39,203 nucleotides of DNA from a virus. Taxonomy: Duplodnaviria > Caudoviricetes. The notes beneath the pieces are model-generated. The model did no database searches and was not told where the DNA came from. It saw only the letters and a list, made by a program, of their open reading frames with translations. A program made the position numbers and the translations under genes. Of this stretch, positions 1,262 to 16,827 are shown piece by piece. Location: positions 1-39,203 of IMG/VR virus record IMGVR_UViG_3300031949_000097; one strand, given 5' to 3'. The stretch's first letter is position 1. Every line of letters begins with the position of its first letter.

Positions 1262-2961
1262 GCGGAATCGAACAGCATGTCGCTGGCGCGCAGCTCGCCC
1301 CGACCTTCGATGAGCTCCAGGACGCGCAGCTTCGAGAGGGCGTTGTTGAAACCCCCGCCGTCCGGAGCATAACCGGCGACCGAGGCGAGCTCTTCCCTCG
1401 TGACCGATTCCGGATGCCTGGCGCAGAGAACGCGCAGGATCTCCCGCTCGGCCTTCGGCAGCTGCGCCTGCCAGTGACCGGCCAGGGCCGCGCCGGTCGG
1501 GAGCGGCTCGAAGTCACCCAGAGCCTCGACGCCTATCTGCGTCGCCTCGATGAGGCCCAGGCCGACATTGCGGATGAATCCCGCCACGCGGAGCGCCGAG
1601 ACTGCATTGGTGAAGCCGCCGCCCTTCCAGGCGTAGCCCGTGACAACGGCGACGTTCCGGACGCTCTTGGGGTGGCCGAACTGCGCCAGCGCGGCCAGGA
1701 TCCGGCGCTCGGCGCGGGGGAGATGGCCATTCGATTCCCGGACGCCCGCTGCATGCAGAAAGTCGCGCTCAAATGGAGTGGTGCCTGTCCTCGCGGCCGG
1801 CGCCGGAGCGCGGAACGGTATGGGCGCCCGCGGCGGGGGCGGGGCCGGCTGATTCGTGGCCGCGGCGATCGTCCGCTGCGGCTCCTTGATGGCCGACTGC
1901 ACGGGCTCGCTCGCGTTGAGGACCCGCAGCTGCAGGCTAGCGTGCTCGAGCACGGCCTTCTCGAGGCGCCGCACCAGCTTCTCCTCGAGGACCTGGACCT
2001 CGATGCGCTTGTCGACCGGTTTCTCCACGGTCGCTGTCGGCCGGGCGGCGAGCTGGCCCTTGAGGCTCCGGATCTCCGTGCGCAGGTCGGCCTCCGTCTT
2101 GGCCTTGCGCTCCTGTTCGGCCGGCAGATCCGACAGCTTCGGCAGGAGCGCCTTGATTCGGTCAGTGGGGGGCGGCGGCGCCGCGGCGAGCTGCGTCCCG
2201 ACCTTCGGATGCGTGGTCCGGACGGGCCCGACATGGATGCGCCGCACCTCGTTCGTCAGGGCCGGGCCGAACGCGAAGAAGTCGCCATCCCCCAGGGTCT
2301 TGAGTTCCTGCCATCGTTCCTTCCCGAACCCCAGCTCGTCCAGCGCGCGCTTCACATCCACGTCGAGGTTCGTGCGGCCGATGAGCTTGTTGGTGCACTC
2401 GGCCGCGGCGTCCTTTGACAGCTTCGCCAGGCGCTGGGTCGCCAGGACCGCCGCAAATCCGCGCTTGCGCCCGCGGGTGCAGAGGTCCTTGACAGCCGGG
2501 GCGCTCTCGGCGTCGCCCATGCCCTTCTCGGGGCAGAAGACGTGCGCCTCGTCCACGACGATGATCGTCGGGTGCCAGAGCTTGCGCGGTGCGTCGATCA
2601 CCGCCTCGAGGAACGCTTTCACGAATACCTTGCGCTGGTCCAGCGGGAGGTCGTAGAGATCGAGAATCGCCGACGCCCCGATCTCGAGGAGACGCTCGGC
2701 CAGGAGCCCCGCGATTCGCGGCTCGGCCGAAGTGTCCCCGCCTTGCCGCGCCGCGAGGACATAATCGAACTTCTCGCGGAGGGTGAAGAACTCCCCCTCG
2801 GGGTCGATGACCAGGTGCTGCACGGCGCCGTGCGTCTCCTCCAGGAGGCGCCGCAGGGCCCATGATTTCCCTGCACCGCTCGACGCCTGGATGAGCATCC
2901 GGGTGACGATCAGCCGGCCGACATCGCCGGCGAAGCCGTCCGCCAGGTGGAACTTCTTCAT
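1258..2961 (-). CDS. HerA/FtsK-superfamily P-loop ATPase with coiled coil and two C-terminal winged-helix repeats
   Basis: Walker A ASSGAGKS, IDPEGE, Walker B IIVVDEAH, RGRKRG and ATQR motifs; duplicated LPxAERxIL...GY...GGGFxNAxSxLR domains; GGAGG SD and ATGA overlap. Confidence 0.88.
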   Translation of the reverse strand: MKKFHLADGFAGDVGRLIVTRMLIQASSGAGKSWALRRLLEETHGAVQHLVIDPEGEFFTLREKFDYVLAARQGGDTSAEPRIAGLLAERLLEIGASAILDLYDLPLDQRKVFVKAFLEAVIDAPRKLWHPTIIVVDEAHVFCPEKGMGDAESAPAVKDLCTRGRKRGFAAVLATQRLAKLSKDAAAECTNKLIGRTNLDVDVKRALDELGFGKERWQELKTLGDGDFFAFGPALTNEVRRIHVGPVRTTHPKVGTQLAAAPPPPTDRIKALLPKLSDLPAEQERKAKTEADLRTEIRSLKGQLAARPTATVEKPVDKRIEVQVLEEKLVRRLEKAVLEHASLQLRVLNASEPVQSAIKEPQRTIAAATNQPAPPPPRAPIPFRAPAPAARTGTTPFERDFLHAAGVRESNGHLPRAERRILAALAQFGHPKSVRNVAVVTGYAWKGGGFTNAVSALRVAGFIRNVGLGLIEATQIGVEALGDFEPLPTGAALAGHWQAQLPKAEREILRVLCARHPESVTREELASVAGYAPDGGGFNNALSKLRVLELIEGRGELRASDMLFDSA

Positions 2962-3266
2962 CGTCCTCCCTTGCTGTGGGTCGTCGACGTGGCTCTTGAT
3001 GCGATCCTCCCCCGTGGCGCCTGAGCGGGGGTCGCCCCGGGCTCCGGCAACTGGCGGTCCGCCGGGATGAACCCCGAGCCCGCCACATGGCCCGTCACGC
3101 GCAGGAAGTCAACCTCGACCTTGGCCGAGTCGATGATCTTCTTCGCCACGTCGGCGATCGCCCGGGCACGTTCGATCTCCAGCGGCTTCTCCGGATCCTT
3201 GAGCTGCTCCAGCGTCTCGAACAGGTGATTGCGGAGGTCCTCGATCTTGTTCTTCGTGCCGCTCAT
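2958..3266 (-). CDS. Conserved phage hypothetical protein (KNKIEDLRNHLFETLE family)
   Basis: ATG at 3266 after GGAAGG; motif DLRNHLFxxLE...IERAxAIxxVAxxII typically found next to phage HNH_3 genes. Confidence 0.8.
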   Translation of the reverse strand: MSGTKNKIEDLRNHLFETLEQLKDPEKPLEIERARAIADVAKKIIDSAKVEVDFLRVTGHVAGSGFIPADRQLPEPGATPAQAPRGRIASRATSTTHSKGGR

Positions 3267-3907
3267 GACGCCTTCCTCCGTATCTGACGCATCAAGGCGC
3301 CGCGCAGCTGGATGCACTCGGCCAAGGCCTTGGGCAGGCGATGGACCGAGTTCCGTCGCATCAGCTCGCGGCGCGTGATGAGCTGGAGGTTGCCGAGGCG
3401 GATATCGGTCCTGTCGCCGTTTCTGAAGACGACCGCATGGCCCAGAGGGACGCGCCCGTGCCGCTTCTCCCAGACCAGGACGTGCACGAACCGCCAGTTG
3501 AAGCGGCTGGTGAGGGTTCGGTCGTCGCTGACCTTTCTCTTGCGGTAGCCGTCCGGATCGACGACTTCGGTCCCCACGGGGACCCAGGTGTCCGGCTTGT
3601 TGCCCTTCTTGAACTGCGTCTCGGCCATGCGACCCCGCGTCCAGCCCGGGCGGCGCAGTCCCTGGTTGGCCGGGACGTGGCCCTTCTGGAATCGGGATCG
3701 CGCGCCGACGTTGTCGCCACGCCGCAGCCGACAGGCCGCAGGGCTGGCCATGTAGGTCGCGGTCTTGCGGAGCCCGAGCCGGGCGGCCATCTGGTAAACG
3801 GTCCATGGCTTGCGGCCCAGACGGTGCGCCAGAACAGCCGTCGAGACGCGGGGATACTGGTCGTGCACGATGTCCAGTTCCGGCCCGGACCAGCGCCTAC
3901 GGTTCAC
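3263..3907 (-). CDS. HNH endonuclease (HNH_3 type) with N-terminal HTH and FxKG repeats
   Basis: RFQKGHVPAN and QFKKGNKP repeats; HVLVWEKRHG...VVFRNGDRTDIRLGNLQL; GTG start overlaps the upstream stop. Confidence 0.85.
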   Translation of the reverse strand: MNRRRWSGPELDIVHDQYPRVSTAVLAHRLGRKPWTVYQMAARLGLRKTATYMASPAACRLRRGDNVGARSRFQKGHVPANQGLRRPGWTRGRMAETQFKKGNKPDTWVPVGTEVVDPDGYRKRKVSDDRTLTSRFNWRFVHVLVWEKRHGRVPLGHAVVFRNGDRTDIRLGNLQLITRRELMRRNSVHRLPKALAECIQLRGALMRQIRRKAS

Positions 3908-4731
3908 TTCTTGGCTGCCTTCTTCACCTTGGCCCCGGGCTTTGCAGGCGTCTGCACCGGCGCCGCCTGGTCGAGGATCTTCTGGACGTCCACGCCGAAG
4001 GCCCGGGCCTGTTTGACTAAGGCCTCGCCTTCGAACCCGATGTCGTCGACCGCCACGCGCACAAGGGCGAGGAAGGCGGCGTGCCGGACCAGGTCCTCGG
4101 TGGTCTTGCCGCGCGGGACCAGGACCTCCGGTGTCAGCCCGACCTCCCTCTGGAAGGTGGCCATCATCCAGCGATCCTCGCCGACGCCTCGGATGAGGGT
4201 CTGCGCCAGGAGGCCGCCGGCCCGGGTGGGCGCCTTCTTCACCGCCTCGGCGAGCGCGGACCATATCGCCGGCGCCGCCTTCTTCCAGCGCGCGTCCTCG
4301 GCCGCGCGCCGGGCCTCCTCCTCCTGCTGCTTCTTCCGCTCCAGCTCTTGGGCCGTGCGCGGCTCCTCGCCCTTCGCCACCGCTTTCGCGACGGCCCGTT
4401 GGCGCTGCTTCTTGGCGCGCGCCCGATCGGCCCAGTGCGCCAGGCACTTGTCCTTGTTGATGCAGGCCATGAACGCCTCGCCTTGGCCGGGGCCGCTGGC
4501 GACGTACGCCACGCGGCACCAGTCGCAAGTCTTCGATCGCTCGTGCCCGTCGGCGCGCTTCCAGGCCTTCGACCCGTACACACGCTCGGTGCCGGCGTGG
4601 CGGACCGCATCGCCGGCCTGGTAGTCGCGGGTGACGAGGATCGGCTTCAGCTTCTCGCCGGCGTGCGCCTCGAGGACGGCGGCCGTCTCGGGGAACAGGA
4701 AGCTGTCGACGTGCCCGGGCTCGCTGCGCAC
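3904..4731 (-). pseudogene. Probable C-terminal half of the interrupted ParB-like gene
   Basis: 275-codon ORF without a visible SD; KTCDWC...CINKDKC and a charged helical region resemble C-termini of long phage ParB-like proteins; joins in frame to 6952..6221 if 4729..6220 is removed. Confidence 0.55.
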
Positions 4732-9385: not shown

Positions 9386-11744
<2,359 letters not shown>

Positions 11745-11758
<14 letters not shown>

Positions 11759-12074
11759 TGTGGATTTCCTGCGGGCTGTATTCGCGCTGCCGCACGACCC
11801 TGTATGACCCAGGGGCGATCGTCACCGGGGCGTGTTCCTCGTGCTGCAACGTCGCGCCCGCGGTTCCCACCTTGAGGAAACGCACATCGCCCCGCTCGAG
11901 GAGCATGACGTCCTCGTCGAGCACGGCATGGGCGTGCCCGGTCGCCTCGCCATAGGCCAGCACGATGCGGCCGCGCTCCCGCGGGACCTGCGTGGCCCCC
12001 TTGGAAATCGCTCTGGCACGAACCAACATCACGTCACCCTGGCGGAACTGCTTCGGGCTCTTGCTCTTGGTCAT
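11745..12074 (-). CDS. Conserved His-rich partner of DUF6745-like proteins
   Basis: FRQGDV, LAYGEATGHAH, LQHEEH and YRVVRQREY motifs; GGAGG SD; overlaps the DUF6745-like start. Confidence 0.85.
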
Positions 12075-12325
12075 GTGACCTCCATGGTTGACGTAGCGGG
12101 GACATCCGGGGTGCGCCTCGTCAGTTCCTCGATGTACAGCCGGCAGGAGCCGCAGACGATGCCTTCGATCAGATATTCGACGGTGCGCAGCTGCCCGAGC
12201 AGCAGCGACCGCGAGACCAGCGATGCACCCTTCCGCTGGACGTGCCCGATGATGAGGTCCGCGATCTCCCCCATCTCCGCGGCGCGCACGGCGTGGTCGT
12301 GCCAGCACGGCCCGGAGTGCGTCAT
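12071..12325 (-). CDS. Hypothetical HxxxC...CxxC protein, paralog of 5926..6171
   Basis: ATGA overlaps on both sides; paralogy visible by eye. Confidence 0.8.
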   Translation of the reverse strand: MTHSGPCWHDHAVRAAEMGEIADLIIGHVQRKGASLVSRSLLLGQLRTVEYLIEGIVCGSCRLYIEELTRRTPDVPATSTMEVT

Positions 12326-12489: not shown

Positions 12490-12702
12490 CTATTCCTCAT
12501 TGAAGTCAATGAACGGCTCCACCACTTCCGATGCCTGGACGGTGTCGAGCACGAGGCCCTGGTCGTGCGCCCAGCCGGCCGCCCGGTTCACGGCGAATCC
12601 GATGCTCGTGTCGCGGACATACACGAGGGCCCACGACTGCTCGCTGGCTCCAGCTCCGAACGGGATCGCCTTGGTCGACACGCGGCAGCGGAAGAGTTTC
12701 AC
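12490..12702 (-). CDS. Hypothetical protein, first clear gene of the early operon
   Basis: 70 aa with globular composition; GAGGTG SD 5 nt before GTG. Confidence 0.7.
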   Translation of the reverse strand: MKLFRCRVSTKAIPFGAGASEQSWALVYVRDTSIGFAVNRAAGWAHDQGLVLDTVQASEVVEPFIDFNEE

Positions 12703-13724
12703 GCCGGCACCTCACGGAGCCCTGGATCGATCAGCATGGGCGTGACGGCCCCGGGGCGGTCCGTAGCCCCCGGAGCCGCCTGTCCACTACGAAGCCGGGA
12801 GCGCGGCCGCCTTGGCCCGGCCGCGCCTCGAGGGAACCCCCGGCGGGCCCCAGACGAGAGCAGGTCCGCGTCCTCCCCCGAGGGCGTGCGGAAGGCGCTG
12901 GATCGCAAAGGCGCCCGACCGGGCCGCAACCCCCGGTCCCTGCCCGCCGGCACGACGCCGGCATGGACGAGTGCGAAGCCGCGCCGATGCTGCACGGGAT
13001 CCGGCGCGCGGTCGCCTGCCGTCTCAGGCTGCAGAAGGCCGCGGCCCGGGTAGGGCATCGTAGGGGCCCCGGGCCTGGTGTCCCATCGCCGCCCCTGCAG
13101 CTCCGGCGATGCGGGCTCTTGACCTTCGGACGGTCTAGCCAGCTGAGGAACTCCGGCTGACGTGGTGCGCCGGCCTATTGCCCGCTCTTGGGTTGGGTAT
13201 GGATGAGGCCGAGACGGGCGGCGCCGCGGCGCCGCCCCTGACCCGGGCACTACGGTCGGTTGGATGTGACGGGTATGATGAAGCCGTGACCGCCCGTCGC
13301 AGCTTTGGCTCCCCGTCTGGATGCTCGCGCTTCGAGTGGACCTGGCCGGGGCGCTGCTATCGATCCGGGCGGCGTTGTCCCGTGGGGGGAACCCCGGGAC
13401 GTCCTGCTCATTCGACTTGGAAGGAGGGACGCTCATGGGGGCGGAGCCGTCCCATGGCTTGAGGATCGCAGGCTGGGGGAAACCGGGGGATACGTCGGAC
13501 ACACAATCCGATGCGTCCCCTAATCCACAGGGGTGCGTCGGACTTTTTGGGCGAGGGGTCAGGGCCGGAGCGGGTCCCGTGCTAGACTTCCGCCCCTCTG
13601 GGGCGTGCGCCCATAGCTCAGCTGGATAGAGCGTCGGACTACGGAAACTGCTGGCCTCCAGCGCCGCGAACAATCCGCTCTCCGCGCCTCTTTTTCTCAC
13701 CATGAGGGGCTGAACGCCGGTCAC
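12699..13724 (-). CDS. Possible attP-spanning 341-codon ORF (low-complexity product)
   Basis: GTG overlaps the integrase TGA and has a GAGGTG SD; its TGA overlaps the GTG of 12490..12702; the product is P/R/G/A/S-rich with no recognisable domain. Confidence 0.35.
   Translation of the reverse strand: MTGVQPLMVRKRGAESGLFAALEASSFRSPTLYPAELWAHAPEGRKSSTGPAPALTPRPKSPTHPCGLGDASDCVSDVSPGFPQPAILKPWDGSAPMSVPPSKSNEQDVPGFPPRDNAARIDSSAPARSTRSASIQTGSQSCDGRSRLHHTRHIQPTVVPGSGAAPRRRPSRPHPYPTQERAIGRRTTSAGVPQLARPSEGQEPASPELQGRRWDTRPGAPTMPYPGRGLLQPETAGDRAPDPVQHRRGFALVHAGVVPAGRDRGLRPGRAPLRSSAFRTPSGEDADLLSSGARRGFPRGAAGPRRPRSRLRSGQAAPGATDRPGAVTPMLIDPGLREVPA
12744..13450 (-). ncRNA. Candidate large structured RNA / leader (chain of hairpins)
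   Basis: Back-to-back inverted repeats, e.g. 12801-12826, 12917-12938, 13043-13075, 13084-13111, 13216-13237 (perfect 22-bp palindrome), 13268-13298, 13377-13400; strand inferred from operon direction. Confidence 0.45.
13486..13544. promoter_or_regulatory. Cluster of att-core-like motifs (pseudo-att palindrome plus half site)
   Basis: GGGGATACGTCGGA-cacacaa-TCCGATGCGTCCCC (13486-13520, 7-bp spacer) and GGTGCGTCGGACT (13532-13544), the latter exactly inverted at 13739-13751. Confidence 0.6.
13580..13588 (+). promoter_or_regulatory. Extended -10 promoter for the tRNA half
   Basis: TG-C-TAGACT followed by a GC-rich discriminator, 18 nt upstream of the tRNA 5' end. Confidence 0.6.
13607..13645 (+). 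tRNA. 5' half of tRNA-Arg(ACG), putative attP identity block
   Basis: GCGCCCA-TA-GCTC-AGCTGGATA-GAGC-G-TCGGA-CTACGGA gives acceptor strand, D arm, 5' anticodon stem and loop; the expected TCCGA and T arm are absent; 75 bp from the integrase stop. Confidence 0.88.
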
Positions 13725-14800
13725 TTCTCCACCTCATCAGTCCGACGCACCTTGGGCGGCCCGAAGAAGACGGCCCCCTGCTGGATGAACTCCTCCGACA
13801 GGTGGGCGTAGCGCTGCGTCAGGCTGATGCTCGAGTGGCCCATGTACCGCTGCAGCCGGTAGACGTCGAGCCCGTTCATGATCGCCCAGCTGGCGAAGGT
13901 GTGGCGCAGGTCGTGGAAGTGGACGTCTGTCAGCCCCGCCTTCTTCCGGGCGTGCTCGAAGGCGGTCCGGACGCTCTTCATGCCGCGGCCGTTGTACTCG
14001 AAGACCAGGTCGCCCGGTGGGCCCGGGCGCAGCGACCGCAGGGTCGCGTCCAGGTCGACGTCGATCGGCACGATGCGCTCCCGCCGGCTCTTGGTGTTCT
14101 CGCGGCGGAAGACGAGCACGTGCCGCTCGAGGTCGACGTCGGACCAGCGCAGCGTCAGGAGCTCCGACAGCCGGCCGCCGCAGTGCAGCGCCGCCACGAT
14201 GATCTTCTTCAGGTGCACCGCGGCCGCCAGGATGAGCTTCTTCGCCTCCTCGTCCGACAGGTAGCGGGTGCGACCGGACGATTCCCGGAACTTCAGGACC
14301 TGCTTGACCGGGTTGGGACCGCGGTGATAGCCGCGGGAGATCGCCCAGGTGAAGAACCGCGAGAGCGTGGCGCGCTGCCGGTTGATCGTCGGGCGGCTCA
14401 CACCCTCCGCGATGCGCGCGGCGATCATCGACTCGATTTCCTTGGTGCCGATCTCGGTGATGCGCAGCTCGCCGAGGTGGCGCCCGAGGATGCGCAGGTT
14501 CGACGGCGTGGTCCTCTTGTCGTCGCTGTAGAGCGATCGATACGCCAGGAACTCCTCCGTGACGTCACGGAAGCGCTTTCCGAAGAGGGCCACGCTGAGC
14601 TCGTCTGGGAACATGCGCGGCTCGAGCTGGGGGTCCCGGGCCGGGGATGTCGAGCGTATACGTCGAGAATCCTCGCTGCGCAAGGAGAATCTGGAAACCC
14701 CTCGGCGCCGGCTGTCGGGACGAGGCGGGCCCTGCTGGAGTCCGGCATCGAACAACCGGCGGCGCCGAGGAGTCACATTGGAAAATTGAACGGTGTGCAT
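13721..14800 (-). CDS. int: Tyrosine integrase
   Basis: Catalytic set GGRLSE (R), NTKS (K), HDLRHT (HxxR), MGHS (H), QRYAH (Y); ATG 14800 has a GGAGG SD (alternative ATG 14614). Confidence 0.95.
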   Translation of the reverse strand: MHTVQFSNVTPRRRRLFDAGLQQGPPRPDSRRRGVSRFSLRSEDSRRIRSTSPARDPQLEPRMFPDELSVALFGKRFRDVTEEFLAYRSLYSDDKRTTPSNLRILGRHLGELRITEIGTKEIESMIAARIAEGVSRPTINRQRATLSRFFTWAISRGYHRGPNPVKQVLKFRESSGRTRYLSDEEAKKLILAAAVHLKKIIVAALHCGGRLSELLTLRWSDVDLERHVLVFRRENTKSRRERIVPIDVDLDATLRSLRPGPPGDLVFEYNGRGMKSVRTAFEHARKKAGLTDVHFHDLRHTFASWAIMNGLDVYRLQRYMGHSSISLTQRYAHLSEEFIQQGAVFFGPPKVRRTDEVEK

Positions 14801-14825
14801 CCCACCCTCCAGCAGAGACGCGTGG

Positions 14826-14854
14826 AGTGTGGGGCGTCGGAGTGAGAATGTCAA
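14826..14854 (-). promoter_or_regulatory. Sigma70-type promoter for int
   Basis: TTGACA-N17-CACACT, 25 nt upstream of ATG 14800; the spacer contains the GCGTCGGA motif. Confidence 0.6.
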
Positions 14855-15790: not shown

Positions 15791-16138
15791 TCACTTCGCG
15801 GGGATGTATTTGACCTTCCTGAGCCAGACCCCGACCGCGGCCAGGTAGCCGCCCAGCGCGAGGGCGTAGGGCTGGGCCCAGGACAGCCAGCCGCAGGCGC
15901 GGCTGGCTGACGCGATGCACAGCGCCAGGAGGTCCGGATTGGTGACCAGCGCCACGAGGGCGCCGAGGCCGATGAGGACGGCGCCGATCAGGCGCCGGTA
16001 GTTCGCCAGCGCATTGAACGAAAGGACCCGCTTCAGCAGTCCGGCAACCACTTTCTCCTTCATCTTCAGCTCCTTCCGGCGCGCGACCCGCCGCGCCCAA
16101 GCCTTCGCGAATAAACCCCAGAGCACCGGGATAGGCAT
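15791..16138 (-). CDS. Membrane protein, holin-like
   Basis: Two hydrophobic segments (LIGAVLIGLGALVALV; YALALGGYLAAVGVWL) with a basic C-terminus, in the lysis region. Confidence 0.6.
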   Translation of the reverse strand: MPIPVLWGLFAKAWARRVARRKELKMKEKVVAGLLKRVLSFNALANYRRLIGAVLIGLGALVALVTNPDLLALCIASASRACGWLSWAQPYALALGGYLAAVGVWLRKVKYIPAK

Positions 16139-16827
16139 CAGGCCGCCCGGCTCCTTCGATGAGTCCTGGCCATCGCGGCCCAGCGCATCTCCTCCAGGCC
16201 CCCCACCTCGATCAGCCGCACGGCCTCCTTGCAGATCCCGAGGCGTCTGCCGATCGCCTCCAGCGTCATCCGCCTCCGGCCACGGACGCCGTATCGCCCC
16301 GTGATGACGTACCGGGTCCGCGAGTCCAGAGTCAGCAGCAGCTCCCTCACCTGCTCCGCGGCGTCACGCCCCTCGAGCGCGGCCAACGGCGAAGCGAAGA
16401 CCTGCTGCTCCAGCCGCTCCTCCAGCGGCACGAGAGTCCCGGCGGCGCCGCGGTCCTCGAGTGGAAGAGCCTGTGGCCGACACCCCGCGCCGACTTTCCT
16501 CTGCGGGATGTGGACCGGCGCCATGAGCTCGCCCACGAACACCTGGATCGACCGCCTCACCCAGGCGATGGCATAGGACATGAACAGGACCCCGCGGCCG
16601 GGATCGAATCGCTTCATGGCCTCGAATAGGCCGAGGACGCCATGGGCGACCAGGTCCTCCATGTCCAGGCCGCTCCACCGGTAGCGCGCCGCCGCCTGGA
16701 TCACCAGGGGGACGTTGCAGAGAATGAGCCGATGCAGGGCGTCGGTCTCGCCCGCCTGCGCGCGCGCCACGAGCTCGAGCTGCTCGCGCGGGCTGACTCG
16801 CGGCATCTTCCCCGGGTAGCGCCTCAT
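16138..16827 (-). CDS. Sigma-70 family RNA polymerase sigma factor (RpoD/RpoS/RpoH-like, shortened region 3)
   Basis: AQAGETDALHRLILCNVPLV...RY..SGLDMEDLVAHGVLGLFEAMKRFDPGRG..FMSYA..WVR (region 2); TLEAIGRRLGICKEAVRLIE (region 4). Confidence 0.92.
   Translation of the reverse strand: MRRYPGKMPRVSPREQLELVARAQAGETDALHRLILCNVPLVIQAAARYRWSGLDMEDLVAHGVLGLFEAMKRFDPGRGVLFMSYAIAWVRRSIQVFVGELMAPVHIPQRKVGAGCRPQALPLEDRGAAGTLVPLEERLEQQVFASPLAALEGRDAAEQVRELLLTLDSRTRYVITGRYGVRGRRRMTLEAIGRRLGICKEAVRLIEVGGLEEMRWAAMARTHRRSRAA

What the first reader, a model, noticed from the sequence alone, without database searches (positions are those of the whole stretch)
12744..13450. About 700 nt chain of consecutive hairpins: possible large ncRNA or antitermination/immunity leader
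Seen: the longest stretch without a credible globular gene is tiled by short stems, e.g. GCGCGGCCG-8-CGGCCGCGC (12801-12826), GACCGGG-8-CCCGGTC (12917-12938), GGCCCGGG...CCCGGGCC (13043-13075), CATCGCCG-12-CGGCGATG (13084-13111), a perfect 22-bp palindrome (13216-13237) and GTCCCG...CGGGAC (13377-13400). The att overlap heptamer CTACGGA also appears in the loop region of the last hairpin (minus strand, 12766-12760). Precedents for RNA-based control are P4 CI RNA, P1 C4 antisense RNA, HK022 put and large phage ncRNAs such as GOLLD. I cannot assign it to any of these.
Basis: partly seen in the sequence, partly recalled or inferred. Interest (0 to 1): 0.7.

Follow-up and report, generated by a model that had tools for sequence, protein, structure and literature searches.

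The report
Ribosome relay across phage attachment site
The hairpin-rich stretch lies inside a long open reading frame, with no recognisable protein, that crosses the phage's integration site; it likely passes ribosomes from an RNA-controlled start to the early lytic genes, so that integration into the host would cut and silence them.

Summary
All six stems are present, and perfect stems of 8 bp or more exceed shuffles (4 vs 0.5). The region as a whole folds no better than shuffles (z -1.5/-1.0), matches no Rfam family and does not align with the same region of 8 related phages. It is not a large ncRNA.

It is the 3' part of a 341-codon minus-strand frame (13724-12699). The frame starts on the integrase stop (GTGA), crosses attP (5' half of tRNA-Arg) and stops on the first early gene's start (GTGA). 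It has no codon bias and no homologue. Yet all 9 family phages examined keep a frame across attP linked to the first early gene (8 unbroken from attP, 1 in two steps); one was fetched after the prediction was made.

There a ~75-nt stem RNA has a segment complementary to its own leader's ribosome-binding site, and the two change together across 9 phages.

Likely mechanism: the RNA blocks translation of the relay, the untranslated leader terminates (Rho inferred), and integration cuts the relay. Translation, RNA processing and termination are untested.

The parts
14826..14854 (-). Predicted main early promoter P1 (TTGACA, 17 nt, CACACT)
   Evidence: Same TTGAC-17 layout in front of the leader in 9 of 9 family phages; below the threshold of the consensus scan
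14798..14817 (-). Leader target (seqA / a1b1-like) holding the Shine-Dalgarno GGAGG and the ATG at 14800
   Evidence: 9 WC bp (11 with G-U) to 14740-14732; second 7-bp patch over the start codon
14698..14772 (-). CI/C4-like RNA: closed stem carrying the anti-leader segment (14740-14732), GCCCGCC (14730-14724) and a second anti-leader segment (14722-14716)
   Evidence: Fold z -2.82; cognate helix mean 11.0 bp vs non-cognate 5.7 bp over 9 phages; no Rfam family
13721..14800 (-). Leader frame, in frame with the integrase (359 aa from ATG 14800)
13721..14614 (-). Tyrosine integrase, 297 aa, probably preceded by its own weak promoter-like site at 14683-14655
   Evidence: PHROG 1, PF00589; P0001; promoter-like site read by eye in several relatives
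12699..13724 (-). attP-spanning open frame, 341 codons; GTGA overlap with the integrase stop and GTGA overlap with the first early gene; contains the whole finding
   Evidence: codon score -0.38 vs +0.29 to +0.65 for real genes; no Pfam, PHROG, homologue or Atlas hit
13607..13645 (+). attP: 5' half of tRNA-Arg(ACG), ending in the anticodon-loop core CTACGGA (13639-13645)
   Evidence: Identical to the 5' half of the complete tRNA in L034; same half in L196 and L226
13580..13588 (+). Extended -10 element, predicted to drive the tRNA rebuilt after integration
   Evidence: Conserved in L196; a TG-N-TACACT equivalent lies at the same place in L226 (read by eye)
13487..13751 (.). attP arm with repeated TCCGA[ACT]G sites (13493, 13507, 13536, 13632, 13741), likely integrase-binding
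   Evidence: 2-5 such sites around att in 4 of 4 relatives checked
13414..13491 (-). C-rich, weakly folded tract (C36 G16), candidate Rho loading site; overlaps the upstream edge of the finding
   Evidence: reached by 36 of 362 other stretches of the window, so weak here; 0 of about 110 in L196, L200, L201
12801..13400 (.).
   Evidence: role inferred
13119..13147 (-). Inverted partial copy of the tRNA D-arm region (19 of 22), followed by TCCGAAGGTC; unexplained
   Evidence: 0 of 300 shuffles against the phage's tRNA half
12490..12702 (-). First early gene (70 aa, own SD GAGGT), head of the early/replication operon
   Evidence: GC3 0.84, codon score +0.45

Best explanation
The hairpin stretch is the downstream part of a 341-codon open frame that runs from the integrase stop across attP to the start of the first early gene, and it likely works as a ribosome relay whose translation, not its protein, is predicted to keep the early lytic operon switched on. 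SHOWN in sequence: promoter-like site; leader RBS; a downstream ~75-nt stem RNA complementary to that RBS with co-varying sequence; a chain of overlapping frames from the leader to the first early gene; attP inside that chain. INFERRED by analogy to P4 CI, P1 C4 and Gifsy orf45: on infection the circular phage transcribes from P1, and ribosomes loaded at the leader run through int and the att-spanning frame, shielding the C-rich tract and hairpins and coupling to the first early gene. As the small RNA is processed and accumulates, it pairs with the leader RBS, translation stops, and the naked RNA is terminated, probably by Rho loading on the C-rich tract with the hairpins as pause sites. Integration then cuts the frame at the tRNA anticodon loop. 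The early operon loses its promoter and the frame's start codon, and the untranslated remnant would block host read-through. The small RNA, left at the other prophage end, would give superinfection immunity.
For: (1) Sense frame open from att to a TGA overlapping the first early gene's start in 7 of 8 phages, the eighth (L198) by two overlapping frames; joint shuffle probability 10^-8.1 for the named frame and 10^-4.6 for any of three. (2) L226, fetched after the idea was noted, fits: promoter, 11-bp leader/RNA helix, 374-codon frame over int, 213-codon frame across att ending ATGA (P 0.11). (3) Control: 4 of 17 unrelated GC-rich integrase loci without codon-position bias have an open sense frame over 480 nt. 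(4) L197 has one 529-codon frame over the whole integrase in the +1 frame: 0 stops over 270 codons vs 3-11 in 8 homologues. In L196 the leader frame ends ATGA on integrase Met65. (5) The segments do not align (3 of 36 pairs show a 27-36-nt match) and lack codon bias, so neither RNA structure nor protein is what is kept. (6) The X2 variant's indels sum to -6 and leave the frame open. (7) Leader x RNA matrix: cognate 9-15 bp, non-cognate mean 5.7; only the near-identical pair window/L196 cross-pairs fully. (8) No repressor found in the window: 60 ORFs against PHROGs, PF01381 and PF00717 six-frame.
Against: No RNA or ribosome data. In this window alone the open frame has P 0.009 (named frame) or 0.03 (any of three), and long frames are common at 70% GC. 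For the first 8 phages the frame was named after looking. The window's GTG at 13724 has only a modest SD. The relay has gaps of 5 nt (L196) and 12 nt (L200), and L226's leader lacks a clear SD. A probable second promoter before int (window, L196, L197, L226) could bypass the RNA. The C-rich tract is not exceptional in the window (36 of 362), L198 (34 of 86) or L226 (0.15). No seqC-like downstream target above background in 10 loci. PF01381 HTH genes occur in 3 of 9 related records (not examined). The host and its Rho are unknown, and no integrated copy was seen.
Confidence: 0.68

Rival explanations
1. The region is attP arm and spacer DNA. The frame is open by chance and the spaced palindromes are protein-binding sites or GC-rich noise. 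Integration still separates promoter and RNA from the early genes, but translation across att plays no part.
For: GC 73-78%; no codon bias; folding at background; integrase-like sites extend to 13124; 4 of 17 control loci also have an open frame.
Against: 9 of 9 phages keep the link with start/stop overlaps in unalignable sequence; L197's stop-free +1 frame over int; antisense frames of the same segments are open in only 3 of 9.
Confidence: 0.12
2. The att-spanning frame encodes a functional, probably disordered protein (for example a recombination-directionality or anti-immunity factor) that integration truncates, as for the BPs repressor.
For: attP inside a gene is known for BPs rep (PMC3694055). 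L199 and L201 share a CxxC...CxxC segment before att: 34 identical, 4 synonymous, 7 non-synonymous codons of 45.
Against: Length ranges from 89 to 529 codons; no homologue, no Pfam, no Atlas hit; negative codon score in all 7 frames scored; the only similarity between window and L196 is around att.
Confidence: 0.1
3. The region is a structured RNA: a large ncRNA or a put-like antiterminator acting through its hairpins.
For: 4 perfect stems of >=8 bp vs 0.5 expected; compensatory changes in one hairpin in one contig; span-limited z of -1.7 to -2.6 in 4 of 6 relatives' post-att segments.
Against: Background folding in this window; no Rfam match; no shared motif or alignment among 9 segments; stem excess absent in most relatives; no own promoter or terminator found.
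Confidence: 0.1

Closest known systems
Satellite phage P4 immunity (CI RNA, seqA/seqC; kil/eta translation)
   Same: Small RNA lying downstream in the same transcript as an upstream complementary site, acting by premature termination (PMC4825925 and PMC3632133, passages). That translation of kil/eta prevents Rho termination is recalled (Forti et al. 1999; not held).
   Different: No seqC-like downstream target found; the target is the RBS of a frame that runs through the RNA itself; attP lies inside the relay; this is a full tailed phage; no Rfam C4/IsrK match.
P1/P7 C4 antisense RNA
   Same: Loop sequences complementary to a ribosome-binding region block translation, and sequence change gives heteroimmunity (PMC12197685, passage). 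Two pairing patches here.
   Different: C4 controls an antirepressor beside a protein repressor. Here no repressor was found and the controlled unit is the early operon. No Rfam C4 match.
Gifsy-1 isrK-orf45-anrP
   Same: An upstream ORF with variable protein sequence, coupled by AUGA to the next gene and controlled by a small RNA (PMC4825925, section 11 read).
   Different: IsrK activates translation; orf45 is short, conserved in nucleotide sequence, and is not described as crossing attP.
Integration-dependent immunity of mycobacteriophage BPs
   Same: attP inside a reading frame so that integration sets the state; the paper's model starts from an Int without an arm-binding domain (PMC3694055, section 4 read), and this Int is similarly short.
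   Different: BPs cuts a degradation tag off a repressor protein. Here integration would cut a translation relay with no conserved protein, and immunity would be RNA-based.
Islands carrying a 5' tRNA fragment
   Same: 159 of 3919 Islander islands carry the 5' fragment (PMC4383910, passage).
   Different: A known but uncommon layout. This family uses 5' or 3' halves in either orientation, always between the RNA cassette and the early genes.

Membership tests
Large phage ncRNA (GOLLD/ROOL-like) or Rfam family, for 12744-13450 | Match to a covariance model | tested here: not met
Large phage ncRNA (GOLLD/ROOL-like) or Rfam family, for 12744-13450 | Structure conserved and covarying among homologues | tested here: not met
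   Segments of 9 phages unalignable; a single compensated hairpin in one contig
HK022 put antiterminator | Promoter-proximal twin stem-loops that modify RNA polymerase (recalled) | tested here: inconclusive
   No promoter found at the region's start; activity not testable
P4 CI / P1 C4 antisense immunity RNA, for 14772-14698 | RNA segment complementary to an upstream leader site of the same transcript, co-varying | tested here: met
   9 of 9 phages, 9-15 WC bp
P4 CI / P1 C4 antisense immunity RNA, for 14772-14698 | Second, downstream target (seqC / a2b2) | tested here: not met
   Best downstream helices mostly 7-10 bp, similar to upstream background, in 10 loci
P4 CI / P1 C4 antisense immunity RNA, for 14772-14698 | Match to Rfam C4, c4-2 or IsrK models | tested here: not met
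P4 CI / P1 C4 antisense immunity RNA, for 14772-14698 | Processed into a stable small RNA that causes premature termination | not testable with these tools
   No RNA run listed
Integration-dependent immunity (BPs type) | attP lies inside a reading frame | tested here: met
   9 of 9 phages
Integration-dependent immunity (BPs type) | That frame is a repressor gene with a C-terminal degradation tag | tested here: not met
   No Pfam match in any of the 8 att-crossing frames scanned; L226's was not scanned

The most novel reading that the evidence does not exclude
These soil phages use a lysis-lysogeny switch without a protein repressor. A sequence-agnostic reading frame threaded through the antisense RNA, the integrase (in frame 0, +1 or +2) and attP carries ribosomes to the lytic operon. 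The antisense RNA closes it reversibly and site-specific integration cuts it permanently, so excision alone rebuilds the lytic circuit.
Probability: 0.5. Interest if true: 0.8.

Novelty: new variant of a known kind. Interest (0 to 1): 0.64.

Why it matters
If true, it joins two known devices, C4/CI-type antisense control and integration-dependent switching, into a minimal circuit in which an ORF is kept only for being open. It would explain how temperate phages with no detectable CI repressor stay lysogenic. It gives a new antisense RNA family whose 9-15-nt specificity segment differs between phages, a ready model for heteroimmunity. It also shows that long, bias-free ORFs across att sites, usually discarded as spurious, can be under selection. 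Each step can be tested with plasmid reporters.

Tried and rejected
- Rfam at gathering and E-value thresholds: nothing credible. The YrlA hit (E 1.4) reflects the tRNA half.
- BLAST against INPHARED phages: the 20 records listed (of 194) match only the tRNA half.
- DNA patterns from the finding or cassette in IMG/VR: one search gave 0 hits; one search gave 1 (the contig of L196); one search gave 3, all unrelated; one search gave 13, of which 2 were known family contigs and 11 were dropped as unrelated-looking. None matched the descriptor.
- The metagenome scan was swamped by generic integrase patterns (2 of 64 parts read) and gave no close relative.
- No RNA holder listed, which says nothing about expression.
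- seqC-like target in the finding: none.
- Plus-strand ORF 13321/13435-13629: rejected because its SD is lost in the X2 variant.
- RNAalifold on a MAFFT alignment of the CI-like RNAs failed because the alignment was out of register. No covariance model was built; per-locus helices and a cross matrix were used instead.
- L203/L204 and L040 have a related leader/antisense cassette of different shape before int, followed by a second integrase. They were left out of the att-frame counts.
- Literature: searches returned no paper; the listings showed none whose title or abstract opening describes an att-crossing translation relay. The library lacks most older J Bacteriol and Mol Microbiol papers on P4, P1 and N15. 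No supplements were read.

Full report
Setting. The window is a 39.2-kb temperate tailed phage from soil, linear and 87% complete by CheckV. Every gene with a family match lies on the minus strand. The order of transcription is packaging, head, tail, lysis, sigma factor, integrase (14614-13721), a gap, then small early genes, DUF6745, replication and RusA/HNH. No repressor was found among 60 of 235 ORFs scanned against PHROGs, nor by six-frame PF01381 or PF00717 searches. attP is the 5' half of tRNA-Arg(ACG) on the plus strand (13607-13645). It is identical to the start of the complete tRNA in L034 and has an extended -10 element conserved in L196. Islander lists 5' fragments in 159 of 3919 islands (PMC4383910, passages). 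The host is unknown.

Observation. The six stems and the CTACGGA copy are as stated. Perfect stems of 8 bp or more number 4 against 0.51 in shuffles (0 of 100); for 7 bp, 6 against 1.84 (2 of 100). Folding energy is ordinary: z -1.52/-0.97, -0.77/-0.36 with limited span. Rfam finds nothing. A 151-nt contig from run X2 keeps the 13377-13400 hairpin through paired changes. This is one low-depth contig, and a hairpin kept this way could act as RNA or as DNA.

A minus-strand frame is open from 13724 to 12699 (341 codons). Its GTG overlaps the integrase stop and its TGA overlaps the GTG of the first early gene. It has no codon bias (score -0.38, against +0.29 to +0.65 for neighbouring genes) and no Pfam, PHROG, homologue or Atlas match. 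On its own it would be dismissed: P 0.009 for that frame, 0.03 for any of three.

Relatives. Integrase searches gave 8 phage loci with this cassette (L196-L202, L226; 46-76% identity for the seven aligned). Two further types (L203/L204, L040) have a different cassette and were left out of the att counts. In 7 of the first 8 phages (window included) a sense frame is open from att to a TGA overlapping the start of the first gene with normal codon bias (GC3 0.83-0.92); L198 does it with two overlapping frames. Joint shuffle probability is 10^-8.1 for the named frame and 10^-4.6 for any frame. The latter is the fair figure, because the frame was named after looking. L226 was fetched after the idea was written down and fits: a 374-codon frame over int, a GTGA overlap, an inserted gene, then a 213-codon frame across att ending ATGA (stops 0/4/3, P 0.11). 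Among unrelated integrase loci with GC of 60% or more, 4 of 17 without codon-position bias have an open sense frame over 480 nt; 11 biased loci of 28 were set aside. L197 uses one 529-codon frame lying over the whole integrase in the +1 frame, with 0 stops where 8 homologues have 3-11. In L196 the leader frame ends ATGA on integrase Met65, and the att frame starts 5 nt after the integrase stop. The post-att segments do not align (3 of 36 pairs share 27-36 nt) and share no k-mers clearly beyond shuffles. The X2 variant's indels sum to -6 and leave the frame open. What is conserved is openness and coupling, not RNA structure or protein.

The RNA. Upstream of att in all 9 phages lies TTGACA-17-(-10), a leader with a start codon (usually with a clear SD; weak in L226), and 45-135 nt downstream a closed stem RNA (window 14772-14698, z -2.82). 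The longest Watson-Crick helix between each leader and its own RNA is 9-15 bp (mean 11.0). Between non-cognate pairs the mean is 5.7, and only the near-identical window/L196 pair cross-matches fully. A descriptor scan of 2435 TTGAC sites in 1.57 Mb of fetched DNA gave 48 hits; 16 of these overlapped an SD, 13 being these cassettes (repeat fetches included) and 3 others not followed up. The cassette lies before int (window, L196, L197, L226) or after it (L198-L202), and att is a 5' or 3' tRNA half in either orientation, but att always falls between the cassette and the early genes. No seqC-like second target was found, in the finding or elsewhere, and there is no Rfam match.

Mechanism (inferred). 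In the circular phage, ribosomes loaded at the leader would run through int and the att frame to the first early gene. The RNA, once accumulated, would block the leader RBS, and the untranslated RNA would terminate. A C-rich tract lies 15-365 nt after att in the eight segments. It is exceptional in L196, L200 and L201 (0 of about 110 control stretches each), modest in L197, L199, L202 and the window (36 of 362), and weak in L198 and L226. In the window it sits at 13491-13414, directly before the hairpin chain, which is the layout of a Rho loading site followed by pause sites (established knowledge; untested here). Integration would put promoter, RNA and the frame's start at one prophage end and the early operon at the other. 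Confidence: antisense RNA about 0.9; frame under selection about 0.85; Rho and the hairpins' role about 0.5; whole model 0.68.

Against. There are no expression data and no integrated copy was seen. A probable integrase promoter could bypass the RNA in four phages. The relay has small gaps in L196 and L200. HTH_3 genes occur in 3 of 9 related records and were not examined. The inverted tRNA D-arm copy at 13126-13147 (19 of 22; 0 of 300 shuffles) is unexplained: L196 has a weaker one (9 of 300) and L226 none. It could pair with the anti-tRNA part of the same transcript or be a relic of an older att.

Comparison. It works like P4 CI and P1 C4 (PMC4825925, PMC3632133, PMC12197685: passages; P4 kil/eta recalled, not read) and like Gifsy orf45 coupling (PMC4825925, abstract and section 11). 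It shares attP-within-a-frame with BPs (PMC3694055, abstract and section 4). It fails membership of each on a defining feature: no seqC or Rfam match, and no repressor. The searches (listings only) showed no description of this combination, but the library lacks much of the older literature. Two earlier unchecked scan notes describe antisense RNAs beside or split by attP in other phage groups; they are leads, not support.

Verdict. The hairpins are real but secondary, and the large-ncRNA reading is not supported. The finding is the controlled end of an RNA-gated translation relay that crosses attP: a new variant of a known kind, interest 0.64.

Noticed in passing
window 14854-14698 (-): CI/C4-like antisense RNA cassette with phage-specific, co-varying target; not in Rfam. 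Deserves its own covariance model from a hand-made alignment.
   Followed up: yes
window 13126-13147 and 13119-13131: Inverted 19/22 copy of the tRNA-Arg D-arm region joined to a 10-mer matching the 3' anticodon stem and variable loop seen in L197; unexplained.
   Followed up: partly
window 13194-13212 and 13271-13290 (+): Imperfect direct repeat, 77 nt apart; 12 nt of the second copy are identical in L196's post-att segment.
   Followed up: no
window 13580-13645 (+): In the circular phage the tRNA promoter would transcribe antisense into the start of the att frame and the 3' end of int.
   Followed up: no
L197 5777-7366: 529-codon frame overlapping the entire integrase in the +1 frame with no stop (homologues 3-11 stops in 270 codons).
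   Followed up: partly
L203 5665-5914 and L040 4663-4965: A second type of leader/antisense cassette (16-17-bp helix) before an integrase followed by another integrase; in L203 the leader frame ends ATGA on the integrase start.
   Followed up: partly
window 10337-11758 (-): DUF6745 protein with a long 12-nt tandem array (four-residue repeats), next to a 110-aa gene at 11745-12077.
   Followed up: no
window 2958-3284 (-) and 16138-16827 (-): Small protein matching phrog_2044 (labelled RNA polymerase beta subunit) among early genes, and a sigma factor inside the lysis region.
   Followed up: no
L199 6984-7723: Two genes resembling a HicB/HicA toxin-antitoxin pair (by eye, label recalled) inserted between int and the RNA cassette; L226 has a different gene inserted between int and att.
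   Followed up: no
L202 about 2860 and L226 about sense position 4135: Shared 28-nt motif (24 of 28) in otherwise unalignable early-region DNA.
   Followed up: no
G001, G004, G008: HTH_3 (PF01381) genes in three related records; whether any is a repressor was not examined.
   Followed up: no
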